Shown piece after piece: positions 9,445 through 38,416 of a stretch of 57,824 bases of DNA (its first letter is position 1; the number at the start of each line of letters is the position of its first letter). The position numbers were made by a program, and so were the translations under genes. The notes under the pieces are model-generated. The model saw nothing but the letters and a program-made list of their open reading frames with translations. It was not told the origin of the DNA and did not search any database. Source of the stretch: a virus (taxonomy: Duplodnaviria; Heunggongvirae; Uroviricota; Caudoviricetes); IMG/VR virus record IMGVR_UViG_3300042868_014220; one strand, given 5' to 3'.

Positions 9445-10653
9445 ATGTCTAAAATCAAAGTATTAGTTGTCCCCTCTGACAGAACAGGTGTGGGTAAATT
9501 TAGGTCTGTAGACCCTCACGTCTTTCTGCAAAATCTATATGGGGATGATTTCCATGTTGATATCATATATGATACACCATACGAAGATTTATCGTTTTGG
9601 ACGCAATATCAAATAATTGCTTTTCATAGAAGCATTGGTCCTGATTTTGATAAATCATGTGAATTAATTCAAAAATTAAATGGATTGGGAGTTGTTACAG
9701 TTTGTGATATTGACGATTATTGGATGCCAGGAAAAGAACACCCAATTCACGATATCATTAGAGTTAACAAGATTAACGAAAAAATTACGGCAAACCTTAG
9801 AGTTTCTAAATACGTAACAACAACCACAACTTTATTTGCCGATGAGATTAAAAAGTTAAATAAGAATGTTGTTATATTCCCTAACGCAATTAATCCTAAT
9901 GAACCTCAGTTTAAAGAACCAACATTAGAATCTGATAGATTAAGAGTTGGTTGGTTAGGTGGTTCTTCTCACTTACACGACCTTCAATTATTAAGTTTAG
10001 GAAAAACACTTGACCTTAAAGATAAATTACAATATGTGTTATGTGGTTTTGATACAAGAGGTAGTGTTACTGAAATCAATCAACAAACAGGTGAACAAAA
10101 GAAAAGAGATATTCTACCTCATGAAACTGTTTGGGCTGAGTATGAAAAAATATTCACAAAAAACCTTAGTACCGTATCGGAAGAGTATAAGAAATACCTA
10201 TTGCAATATACTCAAGAAGAATATCCAAATGAGATAAATGAACCTTATATTAGAGTTTGGACAAAACCTGTAACATCTTATGCTAAAAATTATTCAAAAT
10301 TTGATGTATCTTTGGCACCAATAAAAAATCATATGTTTAATAGAATGAAATCTCAATTAAAAGTTATTGAAGCTGGTTTCTATAAGAAAGCGATTATTGC
10401 GTCTGATTTAGGTCCATATACACTTGACTTGAAACATTGTTTACAAAATGGTAACTTTGTAGATGGAAACGCATTGTTAGTTAGTGAGACTAGAAATCAC
10501 TCCGATTGGTCAAAATACATAGATAAATTGGTTAAAAATCCTAACATGGCTAAAGATATGGGTGAAAGATTATATGAGACAGTTAAAGACAAATATGATT
10601 TAAACACTGTAACAAGAGATAGGGCTTCTTTTTATAAATCAATAATTAAATGA
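9445..10653 (+). CDS. Glycosyltransferase, GT-B fold (GT4-like)
   Basis: DIDDYW, VTTTT..FA, VFPNAIN, RVGWLGGSSHLHDL, DVSLAP...KSQLKVIEAG...IIASD. Confidence 0.75.
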   Translation: MSKIKVLVVPSDRTGVGKFRSVDPHVFLQNLYGDDFHVDIIYDTPYEDLSFWTQYQIIAFHRSIGPDFDKSCELIQKLNGLGVVTVCDIDDYWMPGKEHPIHDIIRVNKINEKITANLRVSKYVTTTTTLFADEIKKLNKNVVIFPNAINPNEPQFKEPTLESDRLRVGWLGGSSHLHDLQLLSLGKTLDLKDKLQYVLCGFDTRGSVTEINQQTGEQKKRDILPHETVWAEYEKIFTKNLSTVSEEYKKYLLQYTQEEYPNEINEPYIRVWTKPVTSYAKNYSKFDVSLAPIKNHMFNRMKSQLKVIEAGFYKKAIIASDLGPYTLDLKHCLQNGNFVDGNALLVSETRNHSDWSKYIDKLVKNPNMAKDMGERLYETVKDKYDLNTVTRDRASFYKSIIK

Positions 10654-11351
10654 TAACAACACCTATAACAAAATTATTATTCTTGGACATTGAAACCGTA
10701 GGTATTCAACCTGATTGGGAATCTTTAGAAAAGAATAGACCCGAATTGGCATTCCAATTCCAAAACTACCACGACTGGTTTCAAAAAAGATTTCCTGAAG
10801 ACGCAGACAAACCTGTAGGTGATATGTTTGTTAACAGAGCAGCATTAGTTCCTGAATTTGCAAGAATTGCTTGTATTAGTGTTGCCTTTGTTACCGAAAA
10901 AGGTGATATTAAAATGCAATCATTCAGTGACCCCGACGAAAAGAAACTATTACAAGACGTTCAAAAACTGTTATATAGAGTTGGTGAACTTGGTTTCCAT
11001 TTATGTGGACACAATGTTAAAGGATTTGATATCCCAATGATGGCAAAGAGAATGATTATGAATGGTGTTATGCCACCTAAGATATTACCAGGTCACGATA
11101 CCAAACCTTGGGAGATTAAAGCGTTGGACACCAAAGAAGTTTGGCAATACGGTGGATATGGTTCAATTGCATCCTTAGAGCTTATGTGTGTTTGTTTGGG
11201 TGTTGAGTCCTCAAAGACAATGGAAGTGACTGGTAATAAAGTTCACGACGCTTTTTGGGTTAAAAAAGATATTGAAGGAATTGTAAAATACTGCGAAAAA
11301 GATGTAACAGTATTAATTGAAGTAATAAAAAAATTAAACGAATTAAAGTAA
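10650..11351 (+). CDS. 3'-5' exonuclease, PolB-exo-like (DEDDy)
   Basis: ExoI FLDIETV, ExoII GHNVKGFDIP, ExoIII YCEKDV. Confidence 0.8.
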   Translation: MITTPITKLLFLDIETVGIQPDWESLEKNRPELAFQFQNYHDWFQKRFPEDADKPVGDMFVNRAALVPEFARIACISVAFVTEKGDIKMQSFSDPDEKKLLQDVQKLLYRVGELGFHLCGHNVKGFDIPMMAKRMIMNGVMPPKILPGHDTKPWEIKALDTKEVWQYGGYGSIASLELMCVCLGVESSKTMEVTGNKVHDAFWVKKDIEGIVKYCEKDVTVLIEVIKKLNELK

Positions 11352-11977
11352 TGCAAAATATTAGTGGATTAGATGGTTTATACGACCCAAAACTTAGAGA
11401 AGACATTGAAGCTCAATTTGAGAGAATTAAACAAGAGATGGGGTTTGAACCTGACGAAAATTACGAAAAAGAATTAGAAGAGATGTTAGGACTTTCATTT
11501 GAAGAAATGGAAAATGATATTAATAAATCATTGATGACAAAAACAATTAAAGTTGAGTTAACTGAGGACGATTCTGTTATGCCGTCATACGCATACCCAT
11601 CAGATTCAGGATTTGATTTATATTCAACCAAGGAACTTGAAATTGGTTCATTTGGTAGAGTATTGGTACCGACAGGAATAAAACTTTCTTTCCCTGAAGG
11701 ATATGAAATACAAGTTAGACCCAAAAGTGGTTTAGCCCTAAAACAAGGTTTAACGGTTCTTAACACACCAGGAACTGTTGACCAAGGATATACAGGTGAA
11801 ATACAAGTAATCGTATTCAACACCAACAATTATTCAGTTATGATACCAAAAGGAATGAAAATCGCTCAAGCGGTTCTATGTCCCGTAGTTTCTGGTAAGA
11901 TGGTTGAGTTTGAATTGGTAGGTTCAGTGGAAGATAAAGATAGGGGTGATAACGGATTTGGTTCAACAGGAATTTAA
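11351..11977 (+). CDS. dut: Trimeric dUTPase with acidic N-terminal extension
   Basis: SGFDLY, QVRPKSGLA, NTPGTVDQGYTGEI, KIAQAV, RGDNGFGSTG (all five motifs). Confidence 0.95.
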   Translation: MQNISGLDGLYDPKLREDIEAQFERIKQEMGFEPDENYEKELEEMLGLSFEEMENDINKSLMTKTIKVELTEDDSVMPSYAYPSDSGFDLYSTKELEIGSFGRVLVPTGIKLSFPEGYEIQVRPKSGLALKQGLTVLNTPGTVDQGYTGEIQVIVFNTNNYSVMIPKGMKIAQAVLCPVVSGKMVEFELVGSVEDKDRGDNGFGSTGI

Positions 11978-18251: not shown

Positions 18252-19052
18252 ATGTATAACATATCAGTCATTTCAGGATTTGGGTTAGATGTTAATTTTC
18301 AAACTGATAAACCTTGTGAACTATACGTTGACAGAATTCCTATTACCCCAAAAACTTCGGTAAGGGTTTTATGGGTTTTAGAACCAAATGAAATTTCAGG
18401 TTTTAAACAATCAGTAATAAATAATTACGATAAATTTGATTTAATTTTGACTTGGGATAAAAATATTTTATTGTCTTGCCCAAATGCAAAATTATTTCCT
18501 TATGGAACAACTTGGATTAAGGATTTTGAATTCCCTGGTCAAAAAGAATATTGTATTACAACGTTAATTGGTGGAAAAACGATGGTTTCGGGTCATTATT
18601 TAAGACATCAAATACCTGAGATAAGTAAATTAATAACATCAATTCCTGTTCATTTATACAATAGTATAAACACATCTTTTAAACAATTGCCAGAATTAAG
18701 ACAAATGGTAAGTACATCATCGAAAAACGAATTATTTTATTCTCAATTTCATATTGTAATTGAGAATGTCACTTCAGATAATTGGTTTACCGAAAAAATC
18801 GTTGATTGTTTCCAAACAAAAACAATTCCGATTTATATTGGATGTGAAAATATTGGTGATTTTTTTGACATAAAAGGAATATTTCATATTAAATCATTGG
18901 AAGAAATGGTTGAAGTATGTAATAACATCACACCTGAAACATATCAAAATATGTTAGACTATGTTAATATAAACTATGAAAAGTCTATGAACTATCACGA
19001 CCATAAAAAACGTCTTGAAGATGCGGTTAACTTATTTATTTCAAATAACTAA
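18252..19052 (+). CDS. GT10-like (alpha-1,3/4-fucosyltransferase family) glycosyltransferase
   Basis: QFHIVIENV..DNWFTEKIVDCF...TIPIYIG matches the GT10 C-terminal motif. Confidence 0.7.
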   Translation: MYNISVISGFGLDVNFQTDKPCELYVDRIPITPKTSVRVLWVLEPNEISGFKQSVINNYDKFDLILTWDKNILLSCPNAKLFPYGTTWIKDFEFPGQKEYCITTLIGGKTMVSGHYLRHQIPEISKLITSIPVHLYNSINTSFKQLPELRQMVSTSSKNELFYSQFHIVIENVTSDNWFTEKIVDCFQTKTIPIYIGCENIGDFFDIKGIFHIKSLEEMVEVCNNITPETYQNMLDYVNINYEKSMNYHDHKKRLEDAVNLFISNN

Positions 19053-19055
19053 AAT

Positions 19056-19838
19056 ATGGATACAGTCTCAACAAGATTAATGGGTGGTTTAGGAAACATG
19101 ATGTTTCAAATTGCAACGGCATATAGTGTTGCTCTTAGAGATAATAAAGAAATGATTTGTGACACTAGAGATATGGTCATACCTCACAAACCATATACAT
19201 TCTATTCTGATAATATTCTCAGAAAAGTAAAATGTTCTTATACCCCAACGAATCAAAGACATATTGGTGAACAAGGTTTTCAATATTTTCCAATACCAAA
19301 ATTTGACGGAAATGTGAAATTAATTGGTCACTTTCAAAGTGAAAAATATTTTATAAACCATAAAAATGAAATATTAGATTTGTTTGAAATTAATGATAAA
19401 ACTAAAAATAATTTATTAGAAAAGTATGGTGATATTATAGGTAAAGATACTTGTTCAATTCATGTGAGAAGAGGTGATTATCTTGGATTACCGAATCATC
19501 ATCCAACACAATCAATTGACTATTATAAAAATGCAATTAAAATTATCGGTGAAGATAAACATTATCTAATATTTTCGGATGACATTGAATGGTGTAAAGA
19601 AAATTTTGATTTCATTGAGAACAAAACTTTTATTTCTGACAATATAGATTATGAAGACCTATACTTAATGTCTATGTGTAAAAATAACATAATTGCCAAT
19701 TCAACTTTTAGCTGGTGGGGAGCTTGGTTAAATAAAAATGAGAATAAACAGGTAATAATACCTAGTAAATGGTTTGGGGATGCCTACTCATCTTTCAAAA
19801 CTGAAGACCTATATTGTAACAATTGGATTAAACTATGA
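19056..19838 (+). CDS. GT11 alpha-1,2-fucosyl(colitosyl)transferase
   Basis: GGLGNMMFQ, GHFQSEKYF, SIHVRRGDY, IFSDDIEWC, IIANSTFSWWGAWL. Confidence 0.92.
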   Translation: MDTVSTRLMGGLGNMMFQIATAYSVALRDNKEMICDTRDMVIPHKPYTFYSDNILRKVKCSYTPTNQRHIGEQGFQYFPIPKFDGNVKLIGHFQSEKYFINHKNEILDLFEINDKTKNNLLEKYGDIIGKDTCSIHVRRGDYLGLPNHHPTQSIDYYKNAIKIIGEDKHYLIFSDDIEWCKENFDFIENKTFISDNIDYEDLYLMSMCKNNIIANSTFSWWGAWLNKNENKQVIIPSKWFGDAYSSFKTEDLYCNNWIKL

Positions 19839-20758
19839 CTGTATTAGTAACAGGTTCAAACGGATTAGTTGGAAATGCGTTAAAAAAATTATTAGGTGAT
19901 AATCACATCTATCATACAAGAAAAGATGCCGATTTAACTAATGAGATAATTACTAAAGAATATATTACATATCATGTAAAAAATTCTGATGTTGACACAA
20001 TCATACATTGTGCAGCAATGGTAGGAGGGGTTCAAGCTAATTCAATAAACAATGAAACATTTTTTATAGAAAATTATAAAATAAATAACAATGTTATTAG
20101 TTCTGCGTTTGAAAATAAGATTAAAAATTTTGTAAACTTATCCTCTACTTGTATTTTTCCTGATTCTAATATTACTTACCCATTAACTGCAGACCAAATT
20201 GATATTGCACCCCCTCACTCGTCCAATTATGGGTATTCTTATGCTAAACGATTATCAGGATATCAAACAAAAATAATTAGACAATTAACAGGTAATAATT
20301 GGATTACAATTGTACCGACAAATGTATATGGTCCTTACGATAATTTTCATCCTAGTTATAGTCATTTAATCCCTGGAATAATACACAGGGCATATGATTC
20401 TAAGGTAAATAATGAGGACTTTGTAGTATGGGGTGACGGAAGTCCATTAAGACAATTTATACATTCAAAAGATTTAGCTAAAAATATTATGTGGGCAATT
20501 ACTAATTGGAATAGTGATGTTCCATTTATGGCAGTTAACGATAATGAACATTCAGTTATGGATGTTGTTAAAATTGTTATTAAAAAATTTGGTATTGAGG
20601 AAAGTCGATTAATTTTTGACGATACAATGCCAAAAGGTCAATTCAGAAAACCAGCAAAATCTGATATACCTAAAGATTATAACTATATTGATTTAGAAAC
20701 AGGAGTAAACGAAACCATTGATTGGTTTAATAACAATTATAACACACTAAGAAAATGA
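19835..20758 (+). CDS. GDP-L-fucose synthase / GDP-colitose synthase-like SDR (Fcl/ColC family)
   Basis: VTGSNGLVG, HCAAMVGG, SSTCIFP, YSYAK, PTNVYGPYDNF, SHLIPG, WGDGSPLRQF. Confidence 0.9.
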   Translation: MTVLVTGSNGLVGNALKKLLGDNHIYHTRKDADLTNEIITKEYITYHVKNSDVDTIIHCAAMVGGVQANSINNETFFIENYKINNNVISSAFENKIKNFVNLSSTCIFPDSNITYPLTADQIDIAPPHSSNYGYSYAKRLSGYQTKIIRQLTGNNWITIVPTNVYGPYDNFHPSYSHLIPGIIHRAYDSKVNNEDFVVWGDGSPLRQFIHSKDLAKNIMWAITNWNSDVPFMAVNDNEHSVMDVVKIVIKKFGIEESRLIFDDTMPKGQFRKPAKSDIPKDYNYIDLETGVNETIDWFNNNYNTLRK

Positions 20759-21915
20759 AACGAATTGATTTAATTCAAGATACTATTGATAACCAAGACA
20801 TTGATAATTTAATTGAATGGTTAAAAGATTACCCAAGATTAACTAAAGGTCCTAAAACAATTGAATTTGAGAATAAATGGTCTCAATGGTTGGGGTCAAA
20901 ATATTCCGTATTTGTTAATTCAGGGTCTTCTGCAAATTTACTTATGCTATACGCATTAAAAATTCTTAATAAAATGAAGAATACTAAAGTTTGTGTCCCA
21001 ACATTATGTTGGGCAACAGATTTGGCACCCGTACTTCAATTTGATATGGAACCATTATTAATTGATTGTAATTTGGATAATTTATCGGTTGATTTAACTC
21101 ACTTAGAAGAAGTGTTTAAAACAGAACAACCATCGGTATTATTATTAGTCTCGGTTTTAGGTTTATCTCCTGATATGGATTCTATTGTTGAATTATGTAA
21201 AAAATATGATGTAATATTACTTGAAGATAATTGTGAGTCGCAAGGAACTAAATTTAAAGGTATTAAACTTGGTAATTTTGGATTGATGTCATCATTCTCA
21301 ACCTATTTTGGACATACTATGTCAACTATAGAAGGAGGAGTTATTTCAACTAATGATGAAGAAATATATAACACTTTATTACAACTTAGAAGTCATGGAT
21401 GGGATAGAGATTTATCAACAAACAAACAAAAAGAGTTAAGAAGTGAATGGAAAGTAACCGATTTTTCGGCTTTATATACTTTTTATATTCCAGGGTTTAA
21501 CTTAAGAAGTACGGATTTACAAGCACAAATTGGTATCAAACAATTGGATAAAGTTGATGGGATGATTAATAATCGATATGAAAACTTCTTATATTATAAG
21601 TCTAAGTTAGAAGGTAAAACATGGTTCCCAAAAACCTTTAATGATAGTTACACTTCAAATTTTGCAATTCCATTTATAGCCAAAACCATTGAAGATAAAG
21701 AAACTTTAATTAAAGAATTGGATGAAAATAACATTGCTTGTCGACCATTAATTTCAGGTTCAATGGGTATTCAACCATTCTACAAAAAATTATATGGAGA
21801 GAACAAATTACCTAATTGTTCAATAATAGATGATAAAGGAATTTATGTTCCTAATCACGATAAAATGACAAAAGAAGATATTGACAGAGTTTGTAATATC
21901 TTATTAAAATATTAA
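20755..21915 (+). CDS. PLP-dependent DegT/DnrJ-family enzyme, His-type (ColD-like GDP-4-keto-6-deoxymannose 3-dehydratase)
   Basis: FVNSGSSANL, LLEDNCES, SSFSTYFGHTMSTIEGG (His at the usual Schiff-base Lys position), RSHGW, GFNLRSTDLQA. Confidence 0.75.
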   Translation: MKRIDLIQDTIDNQDIDNLIEWLKDYPRLTKGPKTIEFENKWSQWLGSKYSVFVNSGSSANLLMLYALKILNKMKNTKVCVPTLCWATDLAPVLQFDMEPLLIDCNLDNLSVDLTHLEEVFKTEQPSVLLLVSVLGLSPDMDSIVELCKKYDVILLEDNCESQGTKFKGIKLGNFGLMSSFSTYFGHTMSTIEGGVISTNDEEIYNTLLQLRSHGWDRDLSTNKQKELRSEWKVTDFSALYTFYIPGFNLRSTDLQAQIGIKQLDKVDGMINNRYENFLYYKSKLEGKTWFPKTFNDSYTSNFAIPFIAKTIEDKETLIKELDENNIACRPLISGSMGIQPFYKKLYGENKLPNCSIIDDKGIYVPNHDKMTKEDIDRVCNILLKY

Positions 21916-21918
21916 GAT

Positions 21919-22707
21919 ATGTTGAAGTTCTTTAAACCCGCAAGAGGTAATAAAATTCATCAACGAGGATATTTTTCATATATTACCGAAGCGGTCGTCC
22001 ACATACATAATGTATTATTAAATTATCCAAACGAAAAATTAAAGATTTATTATGATTTATCTAATATTGAAGGATATGGTAATCAAAACATTTACGAAGC
22101 GTGTTTTGTTCAAGATGAAAATGATTACTTAAACAACATTAATGAGTATTCTAATATTGAATTAGTTAATTATATATCACAATTAAATGCCTATGAAAAA
22201 GAAACTTTAACGAAAGATAATTTAGAAATGTGTGAATCAATAATTAAAAATAATTTTATATTAAATGATGAGATGAAACAATTGTTTTCATCGAGGCATC
22301 CTCAAATTGATTTTACAAAAACAATTGGATTTCATAGGAGAGCAACTGACATGTCTGCAATACATCACGTCTCAACAATAGATTTATCAAATATCTTTAA
22401 TATCTTAGAAAAAGAAGAATTTGAAAATGTTTTTTTAATGTGTGATAATTTAACCGATTTAGATAAATTTAAAAAAAGATATGGTAATAAGTTAATTACT
22501 TTTGATGAATTTACATCATCAAAATCAGATGACAACCCATTTTTTAAATTAAAAAATGATGATGAGTTAATCAAACAACATATTCAAGAGATTGTTTTTG
22601 GTGCCTACACATTAGGAATGACTAAAAAACTATTTTGCACCAAATCAAACCTATCAACATTTTCAATATTTTCAAACTCAAAATTAAATTTTAACAGACT
22701 TAATTAA
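21919..22707 (+). CDS. NodZ/GT23-like fucosyltransferase-fold protein
   Basis: RGYFSY near the N-terminus, IGFHRRATD, VFLMCDN, SNLSTFS. Confidence 0.6.
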   Translation: MLKFFKPARGNKIHQRGYFSYITEAVVHIHNVLLNYPNEKLKIYYDLSNIEGYGNQNIYEACFVQDENDYLNNINEYSNIELVNYISQLNAYEKETLTKDNLEMCESIIKNNFILNDEMKQLFSSRHPQIDFTKTIGFHRRATDMSAIHHVSTIDLSNIFNILEKEEFENVFLMCDNLTDLDKFKKRYGNKLITFDEFTSSKSDDNPFFKLKNDDELIKQHIQEIVFGAYTLGMTKKLFCTKSNLSTFSIFSNSKLNFNRLN

Positions 22708-22709
22708 CT

Positions 22710-23093
22710 ATGATTACAATCCCTATTAGCATTGGAGAATTGATTGACAAATTATCAATACTTTACATTAAAAAAACAAAAATTTATAACCCCGAAAAAT
22801 TAGAATTTATAAACGAAGAATTTGAATTATTATATAACATATCGTCCTATTATTTAAATGAGGAAAATATTTCAACACTTTACAGTAAATTAGTTGAAAT
22901 TAATTCAAAACTTTGGGAAATTGAAGATGAAATTAGAAATAATGAAAATAGTAAAATTTTTGATTCGCGTTTTATTCATTTAGCAAGACAAGTTTATCAG
23001 ACTAATGATGAAAGATTTTCATTAAAAAATAAAATTAACGAATTAACCAATTCTGAAATTAGAGAGCAAAAAGAACATATTAACTACCAATAA
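22710..23093 (+). CDS. DUF6165-like protein
   Basis: IPISIGELIDKLSIL.IK...LWEIED.IR...AR.VY..NDER..LK..IN. Confidence 0.65.
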   Translation: MITIPISIGELIDKLSILYIKKTKIYNPEKLEFINEEFELLYNISSYYLNEENISTLYSKLVEINSKLWEIEDEIRNNENSKIFDSRFIHLARQVYQTNDERFSLKNKINELTNSEIREQKEHINYQ

Positions 23094-36595: not shown

Positions 36596-38416
36596 TTATC
36601 TCAATTCTCTTAAATCAAATGTTCTAACACCATCTACTGTAATTCTGCCGTAAAATCTATTATTCACCATTTTCTTAGCGTATCTGGTCATGATACCTTT
36701 GATTGGTGTAAAGTTAAACGGATTGTACATAGTTGGAGTTAATTGTAGGGGTACGTATGGTGCGTAAATGTAACCAGTATCCAATAGAGATGTGCCTTTG
36801 TGACCCATTAACACTTGGTTAGCTGGGAAATAAGGGTCTCTGTATACTTGGTAACGACCTGCCAATGTACCAACTCTTTCAATACCCATGTTGTATTGGT
36901 CTTGCTCAGGAGCTGCGTTTGATACGTGGAAATACTCCAAGTCATCAAAAATTGCACTGATTTCAGAAGAAACAACAATCCAATTTGCTCCACCTCTTAA
37001 GGTAGATTTGTGGATTTGAGCTGAAATTTGGTTGATTGCTGTAATCAAGGTTTGGTTCCAATCTTTTTGAGTGTATGGAACTGCACTTGAACCTAAACGT
37101 TTCCAACCATTATAATCCCATCTTAAGTTCCATGCTGCACCTTTACGTAAATCACGTAAGATTTCTCTGTCGATTTCAGCCGCAACTTGTTCTGATAATA
37201 AAGCTGTTAATTCAGCCTCAGCATCAATGTTGTGGAATGCTGCAACGTCTTGTGCCATTTCTGGAGACCATTGAGCTCTTAATTTTCTTTCAGTCACAGA
37301 AACTGTTACTGACAATAAGTCAAACGATACTTCACCAATTCTATCTTCAAACTCTAAGTTTTTGTAGATTCTGTAAGTTGCACCAAATGCACAACCAGTA
37401 GTTGTTAAATCACTAGATGTTGTTGAAGAGAAAGTTGAACCTGTGTAACCGTCCATAGAACCACCACAAGTGATACATACTGGAACTTGTAAGTCAACTT
37501 CTAAGTAAATTTTACCGTTAACGTCACATATGTTGTCGTATTGACCACCACCTGTTCTAGAGTTAGGGAAAGCTGCAGGGTCGTTAGCTGTACCGTATTC
37601 TACAATACCTTTACCATATTTTTGAGTTACTACTCTAAATAAATAAGGGTTAGTAGCATTTGCAGCTGTTGTTGGATTATTTGCGTTACCGTAGATAGTT
37701 AAATCAGATAAGAAAGATTCGTTATCCATTGGGTTACCATCAGGACCGATTAATTTACCTGCTGCTACAGTAGCAAAACCTTCCATAACGATTAACACTT
37801 TTCTGTAATCGCTTAGTCCATAACCTGAAGCAACTAATGAACTACCTACAGAACTCCACACAACTGTTGTTACTGGTGCAGTAATTGCGGAATATTGTCC
37901 TTTAGAATAGTCAAATAAACCTGGTGGGTCTAATGCTGGTTCGTTACCTTCATAAAATCTGTCATAAAGGTCTTTAGTTAAAGCGTAGTCATAACCTGCG
38001 CCAGGAGTAGCTTGTGTAGCGTTTGGTGAACCATACGGTGCGTAGTGGATACCTGTGTTGTTAGCTCCATCATTTTCGTATTTTTGAATGTTAGGTACGA
38101 AGTAGAATAACTTACCGATTGGTAAGTTCATAGCTTGTACTGAAACGATGTCGTTTGCTAATAGTTTAGAGAATACACGTCTAACAATTGGGAAAACCAC
38201 TGTTTCAAAAGCTCCTGTATCAGAAGTAGATGATGCTTCATTGATTAAGAATGATGCTTGGTTTTCGTATAATTGTGCTACGTTTTCTCTCATGTGACCT
38301 TTAAGACCTTCTAAAAAGCCTAATTTGTCCCATTTGTTGATTGTGTCTTCTTTGATAACTTTAAGGTGCTTAAGACCGATGTTACCGACAAGACCTGATT
38401 CTAATAATGCTCCCAT
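36596..38416 (-). CDS. gp23: Major capsid protein, T4 gp23-like
   Basis: KW...GFLEGL, VFPIVRRV, DIVSVQAM..P.G..FY, RKLRAQWSPE.AQD..A.H.IDAEAELT..LSEQ.AAEIDREI, YAPYVPL, GIMTRY. Confidence 0.95.
   Translation of the reverse strand: MGALLESGLVGNIGLKHLKVIKEDTINKWDKLGFLEGLKGHMRENVAQLYENQASFLINEASSTSDTGAFETVVFPIVRRVFSKLLANDIVSVQAMNLPIGKLFYFVPNIQKYENDGANNTGIHYAPYGSPNATQATPGAGYDYALTKDLYDRFYEGNEPALDPPGLFDYSKGQYSAITAPVTTVVWSSVGSSLVASGYGLSDYRKVLIVMEGFATVAAGKLIGPDGNPMDNESFLSDLTIYGNANNPTTAANATNPYLFRVVTQKYGKGIVEYGTANDPAAFPNSRTGGGQYDNICDVNGKIYLEVDLQVPVCITCGGSMDGYTGSTFSSTTSSDLTTTGCAFGATYRIYKNLEFEDRIGEVSFDLLSVTVSVTERKLRAQWSPEMAQDVAAFHNIDAEAELTALLSEQVAAEIDREILRDLRKGAAWNLRWDYNGWKRLGSSAVPYTQKDWNQTLITAINQISAQIHKSTLRGGANWIVVSSEISAIFDDLEYFHVSNAAPEQDQYNMGIERVGTLAGRYQVYRDPYFPANQVLMGHKGTSLLDTGYIYAPYVPLQLTPTMYNPFNFTPIKGIMTRYAKKMVNNRFYGRITVDGVRTFDLRELR

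What the first reader, a model, noticed from the sequence alone, without database searches (positions are those of the whole stretch)
19056..21915. GT11 + Fcl/ColC-like + His-type ColD-like trio: probable GDP-L-colitose pathway in a phage
Seen: the PLP enzyme has SSFSTYFGHTMSTIEGG, with His where DegT-family aminotransferases have the Schiff-base Lys. It is translationally coupled (ATGA) to a GDP-fucose-synthase-family SDR, which is coupled to a GT11. Established: ColD (His-type 3-dehydratase) plus ColC (an Fcl homologue) make GDP-L-colitose from GDP-4-keto-6-deoxy-D-mannose, and the E. coli O55 colitosyltransferase WbgN is GT11. No Gmd is in this window, so the precursor would come from the host fucose pathway or elsewhere in the genome. 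Inference: the phage diverts host GDP-fucose precursor to a 3,6-dideoxy sugar.
Basis: partly seen in the sequence, partly recalled or inferred. Interest (0 to 1): 0.7.

Follow-up and report, generated by a model that had tools for sequence, protein, structure and literature searches.

The report
Phage GDP-colitose module lacking gmd
A large uncultured freshwater phage carries the two enzymes that turn a fucose precursor into the rare bacterial sugar colitose, flanked by three fucosyltransferase-type enzymes, but has lost the first-step gene (gmd) that most relatives keep; the chemistry is known from bacteria and the cassette recurs in many phages.

Summary
Three intact, ATGA-overlapping genes lie at 19056-21915: GT11, a GDP-fucose-synthase-family SDR, and a DegT enzyme with His187 where aminotransferases have the Schiff-base Lys. 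They sit in a T4-like phage fragment.

- The DegT protein scores 212 bits against ColD structures, against about 115 for PerA and E1.
- It falls inside the ColD clade, apart from true E1/RfbH and PerA.
- It lacks three of E1's four Fe-S cysteines.
- E. coli O55 has the same ColC-ColD order, the same 4-nt overlap and almost the same lengths.

New points:
- Twelve of 14 informative related phage loci carry gmd just downstream. In this phage gmd is cleanly absent, yet the trio is under strong purifying selection (dN/dS 0.04-0.17).
- The flanking genes 18252-19052 and 21919-22707 are GT10-like and GT23-like fucosyltransferases.
- The SDR is not an orthologue of ColC. It is nearer to eukaryotic fucose synthases, so GDP-fucose may also be made.

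The same cassette sits under generic annotation in cultured cyanophages (ACG-2014f, S-CAM7). This scan has already reported it on many other phage genomes. I class it as a new member of a known kind. No enzyme activity was tested.

The parts
18252..19052 (+). GT10-like (alpha-1,3-fucosyltransferase-like) glycosyltransferase, 266 aa
   Evidence: Pfam Glyco_transf_10 C-terminal domain, E 8.9e-6, 25.9 bits against a cut-off of 23.9. H. pylori alpha-1,3-FucT 2nzw at E 5.5e-6, aligned across the donor-binding ...ENxxxxxxxTEKI... stretch. Conserved at this position in relatives. The assignment is weak.
19056..19838 (+). GT11 glycosyltransferase (alpha-1,2-fucosyl/colitosyltransferase type), 260 aa
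   Evidence: Pfam Glyco_transf_11, 102.4 bits against a cut-off of 23.9. PHROG 2644 glycosyltransferase. 31% identity, E 2e-37, to the GT11 of the E. coli O55 O-antigen cluster, with HVRRGDY matching HIRRGDY.
19835..20758 (+). GDP-L-fucose-synthase-family SDR (epimerase/4-reductase), the likely ColC-equivalent, 307 aa
   Evidence: PDB: human GDP-fucose synthase 212 bits, E. coli Fcl 134 bits. NCBIfam GDPFucSynFcl 172 bits, below its cut-off of 500. Ser107, Cys109, Tyr136, Lys140 and His179 (E. coli numbering) and GxxGxxG are all kept. ATGA overlap with both neighbours.
20755..21915 (+). ColD-type PMP/PLP-dependent GDP-4-keto-6-deoxy-D-mannose 3-dehydratase, 386 aa; His187 codon at 21313-21315
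   Evidence: ColD structures 212 bits against PerA 116 and E1 115. His187 is invariant in phage homologues and E. coli ColD. Inside the ColD clade, SH-aLRT 98. Three of four E1 Fe-S cysteines are absent.
21919..22707 (+). GT23-like (FUT8/NodZ-fold) fucosyltransferase-superfamily protein, 262 aa, with an HRRATD motif
   Evidence: No direct Pfam, PHROG or NCBIfam hit. Of 38 homologues, 10 hit FUT8_N_cat and 9 hit NodZ. The family profile hits FUT8 at 2.6e-14 and NodZ at 6e-11 in the PDB. The AF2 model has pLDDT 92.8. Best folds are FUT8, NodZ, POFUT2 and POFUT1.
22707..22728 (.). Junction where gmd is missing compared with relatives
   Evidence: The window is collinear with L004 up to 22707 (L004 11955) and again from 22728 (L004 12960). 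The 326-aa gmd of L004 (11956-12936) has no counterpart here. Only 2 nt separate the two flanking genes in the window.

Best explanation
The trio is the late part of a GDP-L-colitose (3-deoxy-L-fucose) pathway plus a transferase, carried by a large T4-like freshwater phage.

The inferred steps are:
1. Gmd makes GDP-4-keto-6-deoxy-D-mannose from GDP-mannose. In this phage Gmd is not encoded nearby, so the host enzyme most likely does this.
2. The ColD-type enzyme uses PMP and His187 as the catalytic base to remove the 3-OH, giving GDP-4-keto-3,6-dideoxy-D-mannose. PMP is regenerated from L-glutamate.
3. The fucose-synthase-family SDR epimerises C5 and reduces C4 with NADPH to give GDP-L-colitose. 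It can probably also convert untouched precursor into GDP-L-fucose.
4. GT11, and probably the flanking GT10-like and GT23-like enzymes, transfer the L-sugar onto a glycan built by the surrounding island of about 10 glycosyltransferases and two O-methyltransferases.

Shown here: gene structure, family and clade placement, catalytic residues, conserved synteny with gmd in relatives, and purifying selection. Inferred: substrates, products, the host supply of precursor, and the acceptor.
For: - ColD placement: 212 bits against ColD, compared with 116 for PerA and 115 for E1.
- His187 aligns with ColD His188.
- The ColD clade that includes E. coli O55 ColD is separated from true RfbH/E1 (736 and 548 bits to NF011936) and from PerA.
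- E1's C-X57-C-X1-C-X7-C pattern is reduced to its first Cys.
- E. coli O55 has ColC (307 aa) overlapping ColD (388 aa) by 4 nt, in the same order, with a GT11 in the same cluster.
- In 12 of 14 informative IMG/VR relatives, gmd (400-410 bits to TIGR01472) lies directly after ColD or one gene later.
- Many bacterial and archaeal ColD-like loci have Gmd and an Fcl-type SDR alongside.
- The SDR keeps all GFS catalytic residues.
- WbgN and human FUT2, both GT11, accept GDP-Col as well as GDP-Fuc, so the donor supply decides which sugar is transferred (PMC11987014).
- dN/dS is 0.04-0.07 for ColD, 0.05-0.12 for the SDR and 0.12-0.17 for GT11, including the gmd-less pair window versus L002.
- Host supply is plausible. 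115 of 201 sampled Bacteroidota genomes have gmd over the cut-off. All 5 genomes checked that have a stand-alone ColD-like gene keep gmd elsewhere.
Against: - No activity was measured.
- The SDR is no closer to E. coli ColC (31% identity, 146 bits) than to E. coli Fcl (28%, 141 bits). Its best structural relatives are bona fide eukaryotic GDP-fucose synthases. Its ColC role therefore rests on context alone.
- E. coli ColD is only 33% identical and sits on a long basal branch of the clade.
- ColD Ser187 is Gly in the phage. A preprint reports that this site is not conserved among characterised dehydratases (10.1101/2021.09.04.459008).
- ColD-family enzymes of C. jejuni act on a GDP-heptose (PMC10440746), so clade membership does not fix the sugar.
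- No gmd or manC is found in the record, but CheckV rates the record at only 25% complete.
- The host is unknown.
Confidence: 0.7

Rival explanations
1. The module makes only GDP-L-fucose. The SDR would be an ordinary fucose synthase serving three fucosyltransferases, and the His-type DegT enzyme would act on some other nucleotide sugar made elsewhere.
For: The SDR is most similar to true GDP-fucose synthases, at 212 bits to the human enzyme. It is not specifically ColC-like. All three flanking transferases are fucosyltransferase types. Cyanophage S-SCSM1 has a published Gmd + Fcl + FucT set read as a fucose pathway (PMC9602691).
Against: SDR and ColD overlap by ATGA and stay adjacent in all 14 related phage loci where both positions are on the contig, even where the SDR has diverged to 29-34% identity. 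The same SDR-ColD or ColD-SDR pairing with Gmd recurs in bacteria, archaea, a cyanophage and a megaphage. No other 4,6-dehydratase that could feed ColD lies beside it.
Confidence: 0.1
2. The product is a different 3,6-dideoxy sugar. One option is a GDP-3,6-dideoxyheptose, as in Campylobacter jejuni HS:5. Another is a 3,6-dideoxyhexose with different C4/C5 stereochemistry.
For: The C. jejuni GDP-heptose C3-dehydratases are 62-67% identical to characterised ColD (PMC10440746), so this family accepts more than one GDP-sugar. The phage SDR and ColD belong to untested lineages.
Against: The C. jejuni route uses a separate cupin C5-epimerase and a longer reductase. The phage SDR matches those reductases only weakly (62-95 bits over residues 3-195) and keeps the Cys/His epimerase pair of bifunctional fucose synthases. 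The 4,6-dehydratase of the relatives scores 400-410 bits to the gmd model. No heptose-nucleotide genes were seen in the window.
Confidence: 0.1
3. In this particular phage the module is a remnant that no longer works, because gmd has been deleted.
For: gmd is precisely absent here. Neither gmd nor manC is found in the 74-kb record.
Against: All five genes are intact. dN/dS is 0.04-0.17, including between the two gmd-less genotypes. The exact ColD protein is recorded on 17 metagenome contigs. Cellular genomes also keep ColD-like genes far from gmd, and E. coli O55 has gmd about 11 kb from colD.
Confidence: 0.07

Closest known systems
GDP-L-colitose pathway of E. coli O55:H7 (Gmd, ColD/WbdK, ColC/WbdJ) with the GT11 colitosyltransferase WbgN
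   Same: A His-type DegT 3-dehydratase without an Fe-S motif. An Fcl-family SDR of 307 aa lies immediately upstream and overlaps it by 4 nt. A GT11 transferase with HxRRGDY is in the same gene set.
   Different: Sequence identity is low: 33% for ColD, 31% for ColC and 31% for GT11. The phage SDR belongs to another, eukaryote-like branch of the family. There is no gmd, manB or manC here. The genes sit in a lytic-type T4-like phage, not an O-antigen locus, and no Wzx/Wzy-like membrane protein lies in the island.
Gmd-SDR-ColD-GT11 cassette of cultured T4-like cyanophages (Synechococcus phage ACG-2014f, S-CAM7), annotated only as epimerase, aminotransferase or CDP-sugar dehydrase
   Same: The same four families in one run. 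The ColD-like protein is His-type and lies in the same ColD clade.
   Different: Only 34-35% (ColD), 27% (SDR) and 36% (GT11) identity. The cyanophage SDR is the bacterial Fcl type, 49% identical to E. coli Fcl. The cyanophage keeps its own gmd.
GDP-fucose auxiliary genes of cyanophage S-SCSM1 (Gmd, Fcl, several fucosyltransferases; PMC9602691)
   Same: A phage-borne GDP-6-deoxy-L-hexose supply plus alpha-1,2-, NodZ- and O-FucT-type transferases, read as cell-surface modification genes.
   Different: That paper describes no ColD-type dehydratase. Here the dehydratase is the conserved core and gmd is the dispensable part.
E1 (RfbH/DdhC/AscC), CDP-6-deoxy-L-threo-D-glycero-4-hexulose 3-dehydrase
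   Same: His replaces the Schiff-base Lys. It is the sister clade to ColD. JGI's automatic names for close relatives of the phage protein use this label.
   Different: E1 is about 437 aa with four Fe-S cysteines and needs the reductase E3. The phage protein has 386 aa and keeps only the first Cys. It scores 115 bits against E1 structures compared with 212 against ColD, and 199 bits against the RfbH model whose cut-off is 423.
GDP-3,6-dideoxyheptose pathway of Campylobacter jejuni HS:5/HS:11 (PMC10440746)
   Same: A ColD-family PLP C3-dehydratase acting on a GDP-4-keto-6-deoxy sugar, followed by C5 epimerisation and C4 reduction.
   Different: It uses a separate cupin epimerase and a distinct reductase, and starts from GDP-heptose. 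The phage has one bifunctional-type SDR.

Membership tests
ColD (GDP-4-keto-6-deoxy-D-mannose 3-dehydratase) | DegT/DnrJ/EryC1-type fold-type I PLP/PMP enzyme | tested here: met
   Pfam PF01041, 223.7 bits, covering residues 14-383.
ColD (GDP-4-keto-6-deoxy-D-mannose 3-dehydratase) | Histidine in place of the Schiff-base lysine (His188 of E. coli ColD) | tested here: met
   His187 aligns with the column that is His, Asn or Lys in wild-type, H188N and H188K ColD chains. It is invariant in 7 sequences. All 84 members of the clade have His, and all 17 outgroup proteins have Lys.
ColD (GDP-4-keto-6-deoxy-D-mannose 3-dehydratase) | No [2Fe-2S] cysteine motif (this distinguishes ColD from E1 and SpnQ; PMC8987622) | tested here: met
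   The true E1 proteins share C195, C253, C255 and C263. At those columns the window protein has C, L, T and a gap, as does E. coli ColD (C, L, K, gap).
ColD (GDP-4-keto-6-deoxy-D-mannose 3-dehydratase) | Groups with characterised ColD rather than with E1 or perosamine synthase | tested here: met
   Quick IQ-TREE run with 63 rows. The ColD clade including E. coli O55 ColD and the window has SH-aLRT 98. E1/RfbH is its sister, and PerA lies outside with the Lys-type enzymes. The careful bootstrap run did not finish. E. coli ColD sits on a long basal branch.
ColD (GDP-4-keto-6-deoxy-D-mannose 3-dehydratase) | Genomic association with Gmd and an Fcl/ColC-type SDR (GDP-sugar context) | tested here: met
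   The SDR overlaps it in the window. gmd lies within one gene in 12 of 14 informative relatives. In the window itself gmd is absent.
ColD (GDP-4-keto-6-deoxy-D-mannose 3-dehydratase) | Catalyses C3 deoxygenation of GDP-4-keto-6-deoxy-D-mannose with glutamate-dependent PMP regeneration | not testable with these tools
   Needs an enzyme assay.
ColC (GDP-L-colitose synthase) / GDP-L-fucose synthase family | Extended SDR with GxxGxxG, the Ser-Tyr-Lys triad, and the Cys109/His179 acid-base pair for epimerisation | tested here: met
   All are conserved in the alignment with E. coli Fcl and O55 ColC. The roles of Cys109 and His179 come from my own knowledge of E. coli GFS.
ColC (GDP-L-colitose synthase) / GDP-L-fucose synthase family | Orthology to characterised ColC rather than to Fcl | tested here: not met
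   31% identity and 146 bits to O55 ColC, against 28% and 141 bits to K-12 Fcl. ColC and Fcl are 39% identical to each other. The best PDB hit is human GFS at 212 bits. It is therefore filed as an Fcl-family enzyme that probably works as ColC, not as a ColC orthologue.
GT11 (alpha-1,2-fucosyl/colitosyltransferases) | Match to the family model and the HxRRGD donor-binding motif | tested here: met
   PF01531 at 102.4 bits against a cut-off of 23.9. HVRRGDY aligns with HIRRGDY of the O55 enzyme. Donor choice between Fuc and Col cannot be read from sequence, because both WbgN and FUT2 take both donors (PMC11987014).
E1 / RfbH (CDP-sugar 3-dehydrase) | Score above the RfbH equivalog cut-off, about 437 aa, and four Fe-S cysteines | tested here: not met
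   199 bits against a cut-off of 423. 386 aa. Three of four cysteines are missing. It lies outside the E1 clade.

The most novel reading that the evidence does not exclude
The colitose/fucose module may cap a phage-made, O-methylated glycan that the roughly 20-kb island assembles in the cytoplasm directly on the phage's own virion proteins. All enzymes of the island appear soluble. One candidate acceptor is the 1351-aa collagen-like fibre next to the island. This would be autonomous rare-sugar virion glycosylation in a bacteriophage, comparable to giant-virus fibril glycosylation, rather than remodelling of the host's surface polysaccharide.
Probability: 0.25. Interest if true: 0.75.

Novelty: new member of a known kind. 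Interest (0 to 1): 0.42.

Why it matters
Colitose is known as an O-antigen sugar of a few Gram-negative bacteria. I found no paper in the held library that reports its pathway in a virus. If the module works as inferred, large aquatic phages make a 3,6-dideoxy sugar during infection and attach it to something, either the host surface or the virion. That would bear on phage-host recognition and superinfection exclusion.

The gmd presence/absence polymorphism gives a natural test of how far a phage pathway can lean on host enzymes.

In practice, many database entries for these genes are named as aminotransferase, epimerase or CDP-sugar E1 dehydrase and should be re-read. Cultured carriers such as ACG-2014f and S-CAM7 make the idea testable.

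Tried and rejected
The 157-kb contig that carries the identical ColD protein could therefore not be searched for gmd.
- NCBIfam has no ColD model. Its best hit, RfbH at 199 bits, is far below the cut-off and would mislead.
- The Cook, Thoden and Holden ColD structure paper I tried by DOI is not held, and a search for ColD structural papers found only the review. The GDP-contact roles of Arg219 and Arg331 therefore rest on my memory only. Both are invariant, as R218 and R330 of the phage protein, in alignment A1.
- A direct 'of' search from a locus failed. True E1 sequences were obtained through handles instead.
- Pfam, PHROGs and NCBIfam gave nothing for 21919-22707. A first AlphaFold model from 6 close homologues was useless, with pLDDT 42.8. 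A 38-sequence alignment solved it.
- The careful bootstrap tree did not finish in time. The quick tree with SH-aLRT support is reported.
- Rejected readings: E1-type dehydrase, aminotransferase or perosamine synthase, and a Bacteroidota origin of the SDR (best 34% identity in 201 genomes).
- The Flavobacterium phage 'immuto', which has one of the capsids nearest to this phage's, carries only a distant Lys-class aminotransferase hit (21% identity). It is not a cultured model for this module.
Full report
**What is there.** The window is a fragment of a T4-like myovirus.
- It encodes a gp23-type capsid protein, a gp20 portal, a gp21 prohead protease, PhoH and dUTPase.
- It belongs to an IMG/VR virus record of 73,954 bases that CheckV rates as 25% complete, which implies a genome of about 300 kb.
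- G+C is about 29% across a 25-kb block of tightly packed + strand genes.
- The capsid protein is nearest (42-46% identity) to those of an uncultured 484-kb phage, Microcystis phage Mel-JY01 and Flavobacterium phage immuto.
- Between 9445 and 26620 lie about ten glycosyltransferases, a nucleotide-sugar dehydrogenase, and FkbM-type and CmcI-type O-methyltransferases.

**The observation.** The three ORFs are exactly as described: 19056-19838 (260 aa), 19835-20758 (307 aa) and 20755-21915 (386 aa).
- Both junctions read ATGA.
- The quoted peptide is encoded at 21289-21339, with the His codon at 21313-21315.
- Pfam assigns GT11 (102 bits), NAD-dependent epimerase/dehydratase with GDP_Man_Dehyd, and DegT/DnrJ/EryC1 (224 bits).

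**The PLP enzyme is ColD-type.**
- Against all PDB sequences it scores 212 bits (E 9.5e-62) on E. coli ColD/WbdK. It scores 116 bits on perosamine synthase and 115 on the CDP-sugar dehydrase E1.
- Its His187 falls in the column that carries His, Asn or Lys in the wild-type, H188N and H188K ColD chains.
- His187 is invariant among divergent phage homologues and E. coli O55 ColD. So are the PLP-site LLEDxCES stretch, R218 and R330. From memory, not from a paper read here, the last two correspond to the pyrophosphate-binding Arg219 and Arg331 of ColD.
- I fetched ColD and ColC from E. coli O55:H7 CB9615, PerA from O157 Sakai, ArnB and WecE, and two proteins that pass NCBI's RfbH equivalog cut-off at 736 and 548 bits.
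- In a 63-row tree, the Lys-type enzymes including PerA lie outside. True E1 forms a small clade. Its sister, with SH-aLRT 98, is a 52-row His-type clade that contains E. coli ColD at its base and the window protein well inside (a 101-row tree agrees).
- Other members of that clade also score about 200 bits on ColD against 113-131 on E1.
- The true E1 proteins share the C-X57-C-X1-C-X7-C iron-sulfur pattern. The window protein keeps only the first Cys, as ColD does.
- JGI's automatic names for close metagenomic relatives ('CDP-6-deoxy-D-xylo-4-hexulose-3-dehydrase', 'E1') are probably wrong.

**The SDR is a fucose-synthase-family enzyme, but not a ColC orthologue.**
- It keeps GxxGxxG, Ser107, Cys109, Tyr136, Lys140 and His179 (E. 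coli Fcl numbering).
- It is 31% identical to O55 ColC and 28% to K-12 Fcl, which are 39% identical to each other.
- Its best structural relatives are human and Naegleria GDP-fucose synthases (212 and 195 bits, against 134 for E. coli Fcl).
- The best match in 201 sampled Bacteroidota genomes is 34%.
- Colitose is 3-deoxy-L-fucose. A fucose synthase given the 3-deoxy intermediate only has to epimerise C5 and reduce C4. This is inference from established chemistry.
- Context supports that role. E. coli O55 has ColC (307 aa) immediately upstream of ColD (388 aa) with a 4-nt overlap, the same arrangement as here.
- In related phages the SDR-ColD pair stays adjacent even where the SDR has drifted or been replaced (29-34% identity) while ColD is still 50-52% identical.
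- The enzyme may also make GDP-fucose from precursor that ColD has not touched.

**gmd.**
- Sixteen IMG/VR loci encode a relative of the DegT protein. One of them (L016) is a Lys-type aminotransferase, and in another (L013) the contig ends right after ColD.
- Of the 14 informative loci, 12 have a gmd (400-410 bits to TIGR01472, 45% identical to E. coli Gmd) directly after ColD or after one intervening gene. Several of these loci are near-identical to each other.
- DNA alignment shows that the window matches relative L004 up to the stop codon of 21919-22707 and again from the start of the next gene. The 326-aa gmd is precisely missing.
- A second genotype (L001/L002, in a 107-kb record) lacks gmd as well.
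- The module is not decaying. dN/dS is 0.04-0.07 for ColD, 0.05-0.12 for the SDR and 0.12-0.17 for GT11, including between the two gmd-less genotypes.
- Reliance on host Gmd is plausible. 115 of 201 sampled Bacteroidota genomes carry gmd above the cut-off.
- All five cellular genomes that I checked with a stand-alone ColD-like gene have gmd elsewhere. E. coli O55 itself keeps gmd about 11 kb from colD.
- A gmd elsewhere in the unsequenced three quarters of the phage genome cannot be excluded.

**The transferases.**
- The GT11 is 31% identical (E 2e-37) to the O55 GT11 and keeps HxRRGDY.
- WbgN and human FUT2 both accept GDP-Col and GDP-Fuc (PMC11987014). The donor pool, not the transferase, decides which sugar is added.
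- The upstream gene 18252-19052 is a weak but consistent GT10 alpha-1,3-fucosyltransferase relative.
- The downstream gene 21919-22707 had no family hit. It carries an HRRATD motif.
- Its wider family hits FUT8_N_cat and NodZ, and the family profile finds FUT8 (2.6e-14) and NodZ in the PDB.
- A confident model (pLDDT 92.8) superposes best on FUT8, NodZ and the protein O-fucosyltransferases.
- The pathway genes are thus bracketed by three fucosyltransferase-type enzymes.
- A hydropathy scan found no multi-pass membrane protein (Wzx, Wzy or WecA type) in the island. That is compatible with cytoplasmic glycosylation of proteins, or with action on host lipid-linked intermediates. It does not decide between them.

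**How common and how new.**
- The same set (Gmd, Fcl-type SDR, His-type ColD-like, GT11) lies in cultured Synechococcus phage ACG-2014f, annotated as 'nucleotide-sugar epimerase', 'aminotransferase' and 'glycosyltransferase'.
- S-CAM7 has a ColD-like gene annotated as a CDP-sugar dehydrase, and a 642-kb uncultured phage has the SDR-ColD pair.
- Dozens of bacterial and archaeal MAG loci show ColD-like genes next to Gmd and Fcl-type SDRs.
- Full-text searches found no paper that reports colitose synthesis in a virus. The closest is the GDP-fucose gene set of cyanophage S-SCSM1 (PMC9602691).
- This scan has already reported phage colitose-type cassettes on many other genomes. I reached the points above independently and list those notes as agreeing.
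- What is specific to this window is the gmd-less genotype and the eukaryote-like SDR.

**Caveats.**
- Nothing here measures activity.
- C. jejuni enzymes 62-67% identical to ColD act on a GDP-heptose (PMC10440746), so the sugar could differ.
- The SDR's role rests on context.
- The trees use SH-aLRT support from quick searches.
- The host and the acceptor are unknown.

Noticed in passing
window 1-4053 (- strand, runs off the window): An ORF of at least 1351 aa with 12 collagen triple-helix repeat stretches (Pfam Collagen, 340 bits). It is followed by an 892-aa ORF with no family hit and lies next to the glycan island. It is a possible fibre and a possible glycosylation target.
   Followed up: no
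window 36596-38416 (- strand): The gp23-type major capsid protein is 606 aa. The best Pfam stretch covers only residues 350-591, and phage hits cover about half the query in two pieces. The protein therefore carries a large extra region.
   Followed up: no
window 22710-23093: A small DUF6165/DUF4254 protein sits between the sugar module and PhoH. Among relatives it is present or absent independently of gmd and of 21919-22707. The 3' end of the module is a mosaic of three optional genes.
   Followed up: partly
window 10650-11977: A PolB-exonuclease-like 3'-5' exonuclease and a dUTPase with an N-terminal extension of about 70 aa are embedded among the glycosyltransferase genes.
   Followed up: no
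L012, L013, L014 (IMG/VR relatives); L028, L032, L033 (MAG contigs): The SDR next to ColD comes in two kinds. One is an 'STC' type, as in human fucose synthase and the window. The other is a 'SSC' type, as in E. coli Fcl/ColC, the cyanophage and the megaphage. The partner enzyme has been exchanged within the family while its position was kept.
   Followed up: partly
L043, L044, L054, L059 and about 20 other genome-contig loci: A tight clade of nearly identical His-type ColD-like proteins is labelled variously as Opitutae, Akkermansia muciniphila, Klebsiella and Enterobacteriaceae MAGs (L043 and L044 are identical). The taxon labels of some of these MAG contigs look unreliable. This clade has no Gmd or Fcl gene within 3 kb, but gmd lies elsewhere in all 5 genomes checked, about 37 kb away on the same contig in two of them.
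   Followed up: partly
L060 / L109 (Candidatus Fonsibacter MAG, one contig): A true RfbH/E1 gene (736 bits) and a ColD-like gene with Gmd and an Fcl-type SDR lie about 12 kb apart. One freshwater SAR11 genome seems to encode both the CDP and the GDP routes to 3,6-dideoxyhexoses.
   Followed up: no
L027, L028 (MAG contigs of 11 and 16 kb): The closest 'cellular' relatives of the phage ColD (64% identity) sit on short contigs binned as Verrucomicrobia and Deltaproteobacteria, with GT11, SDR and Gmd alongside. They may be mis-binned phage contigs.
   Followed up: no
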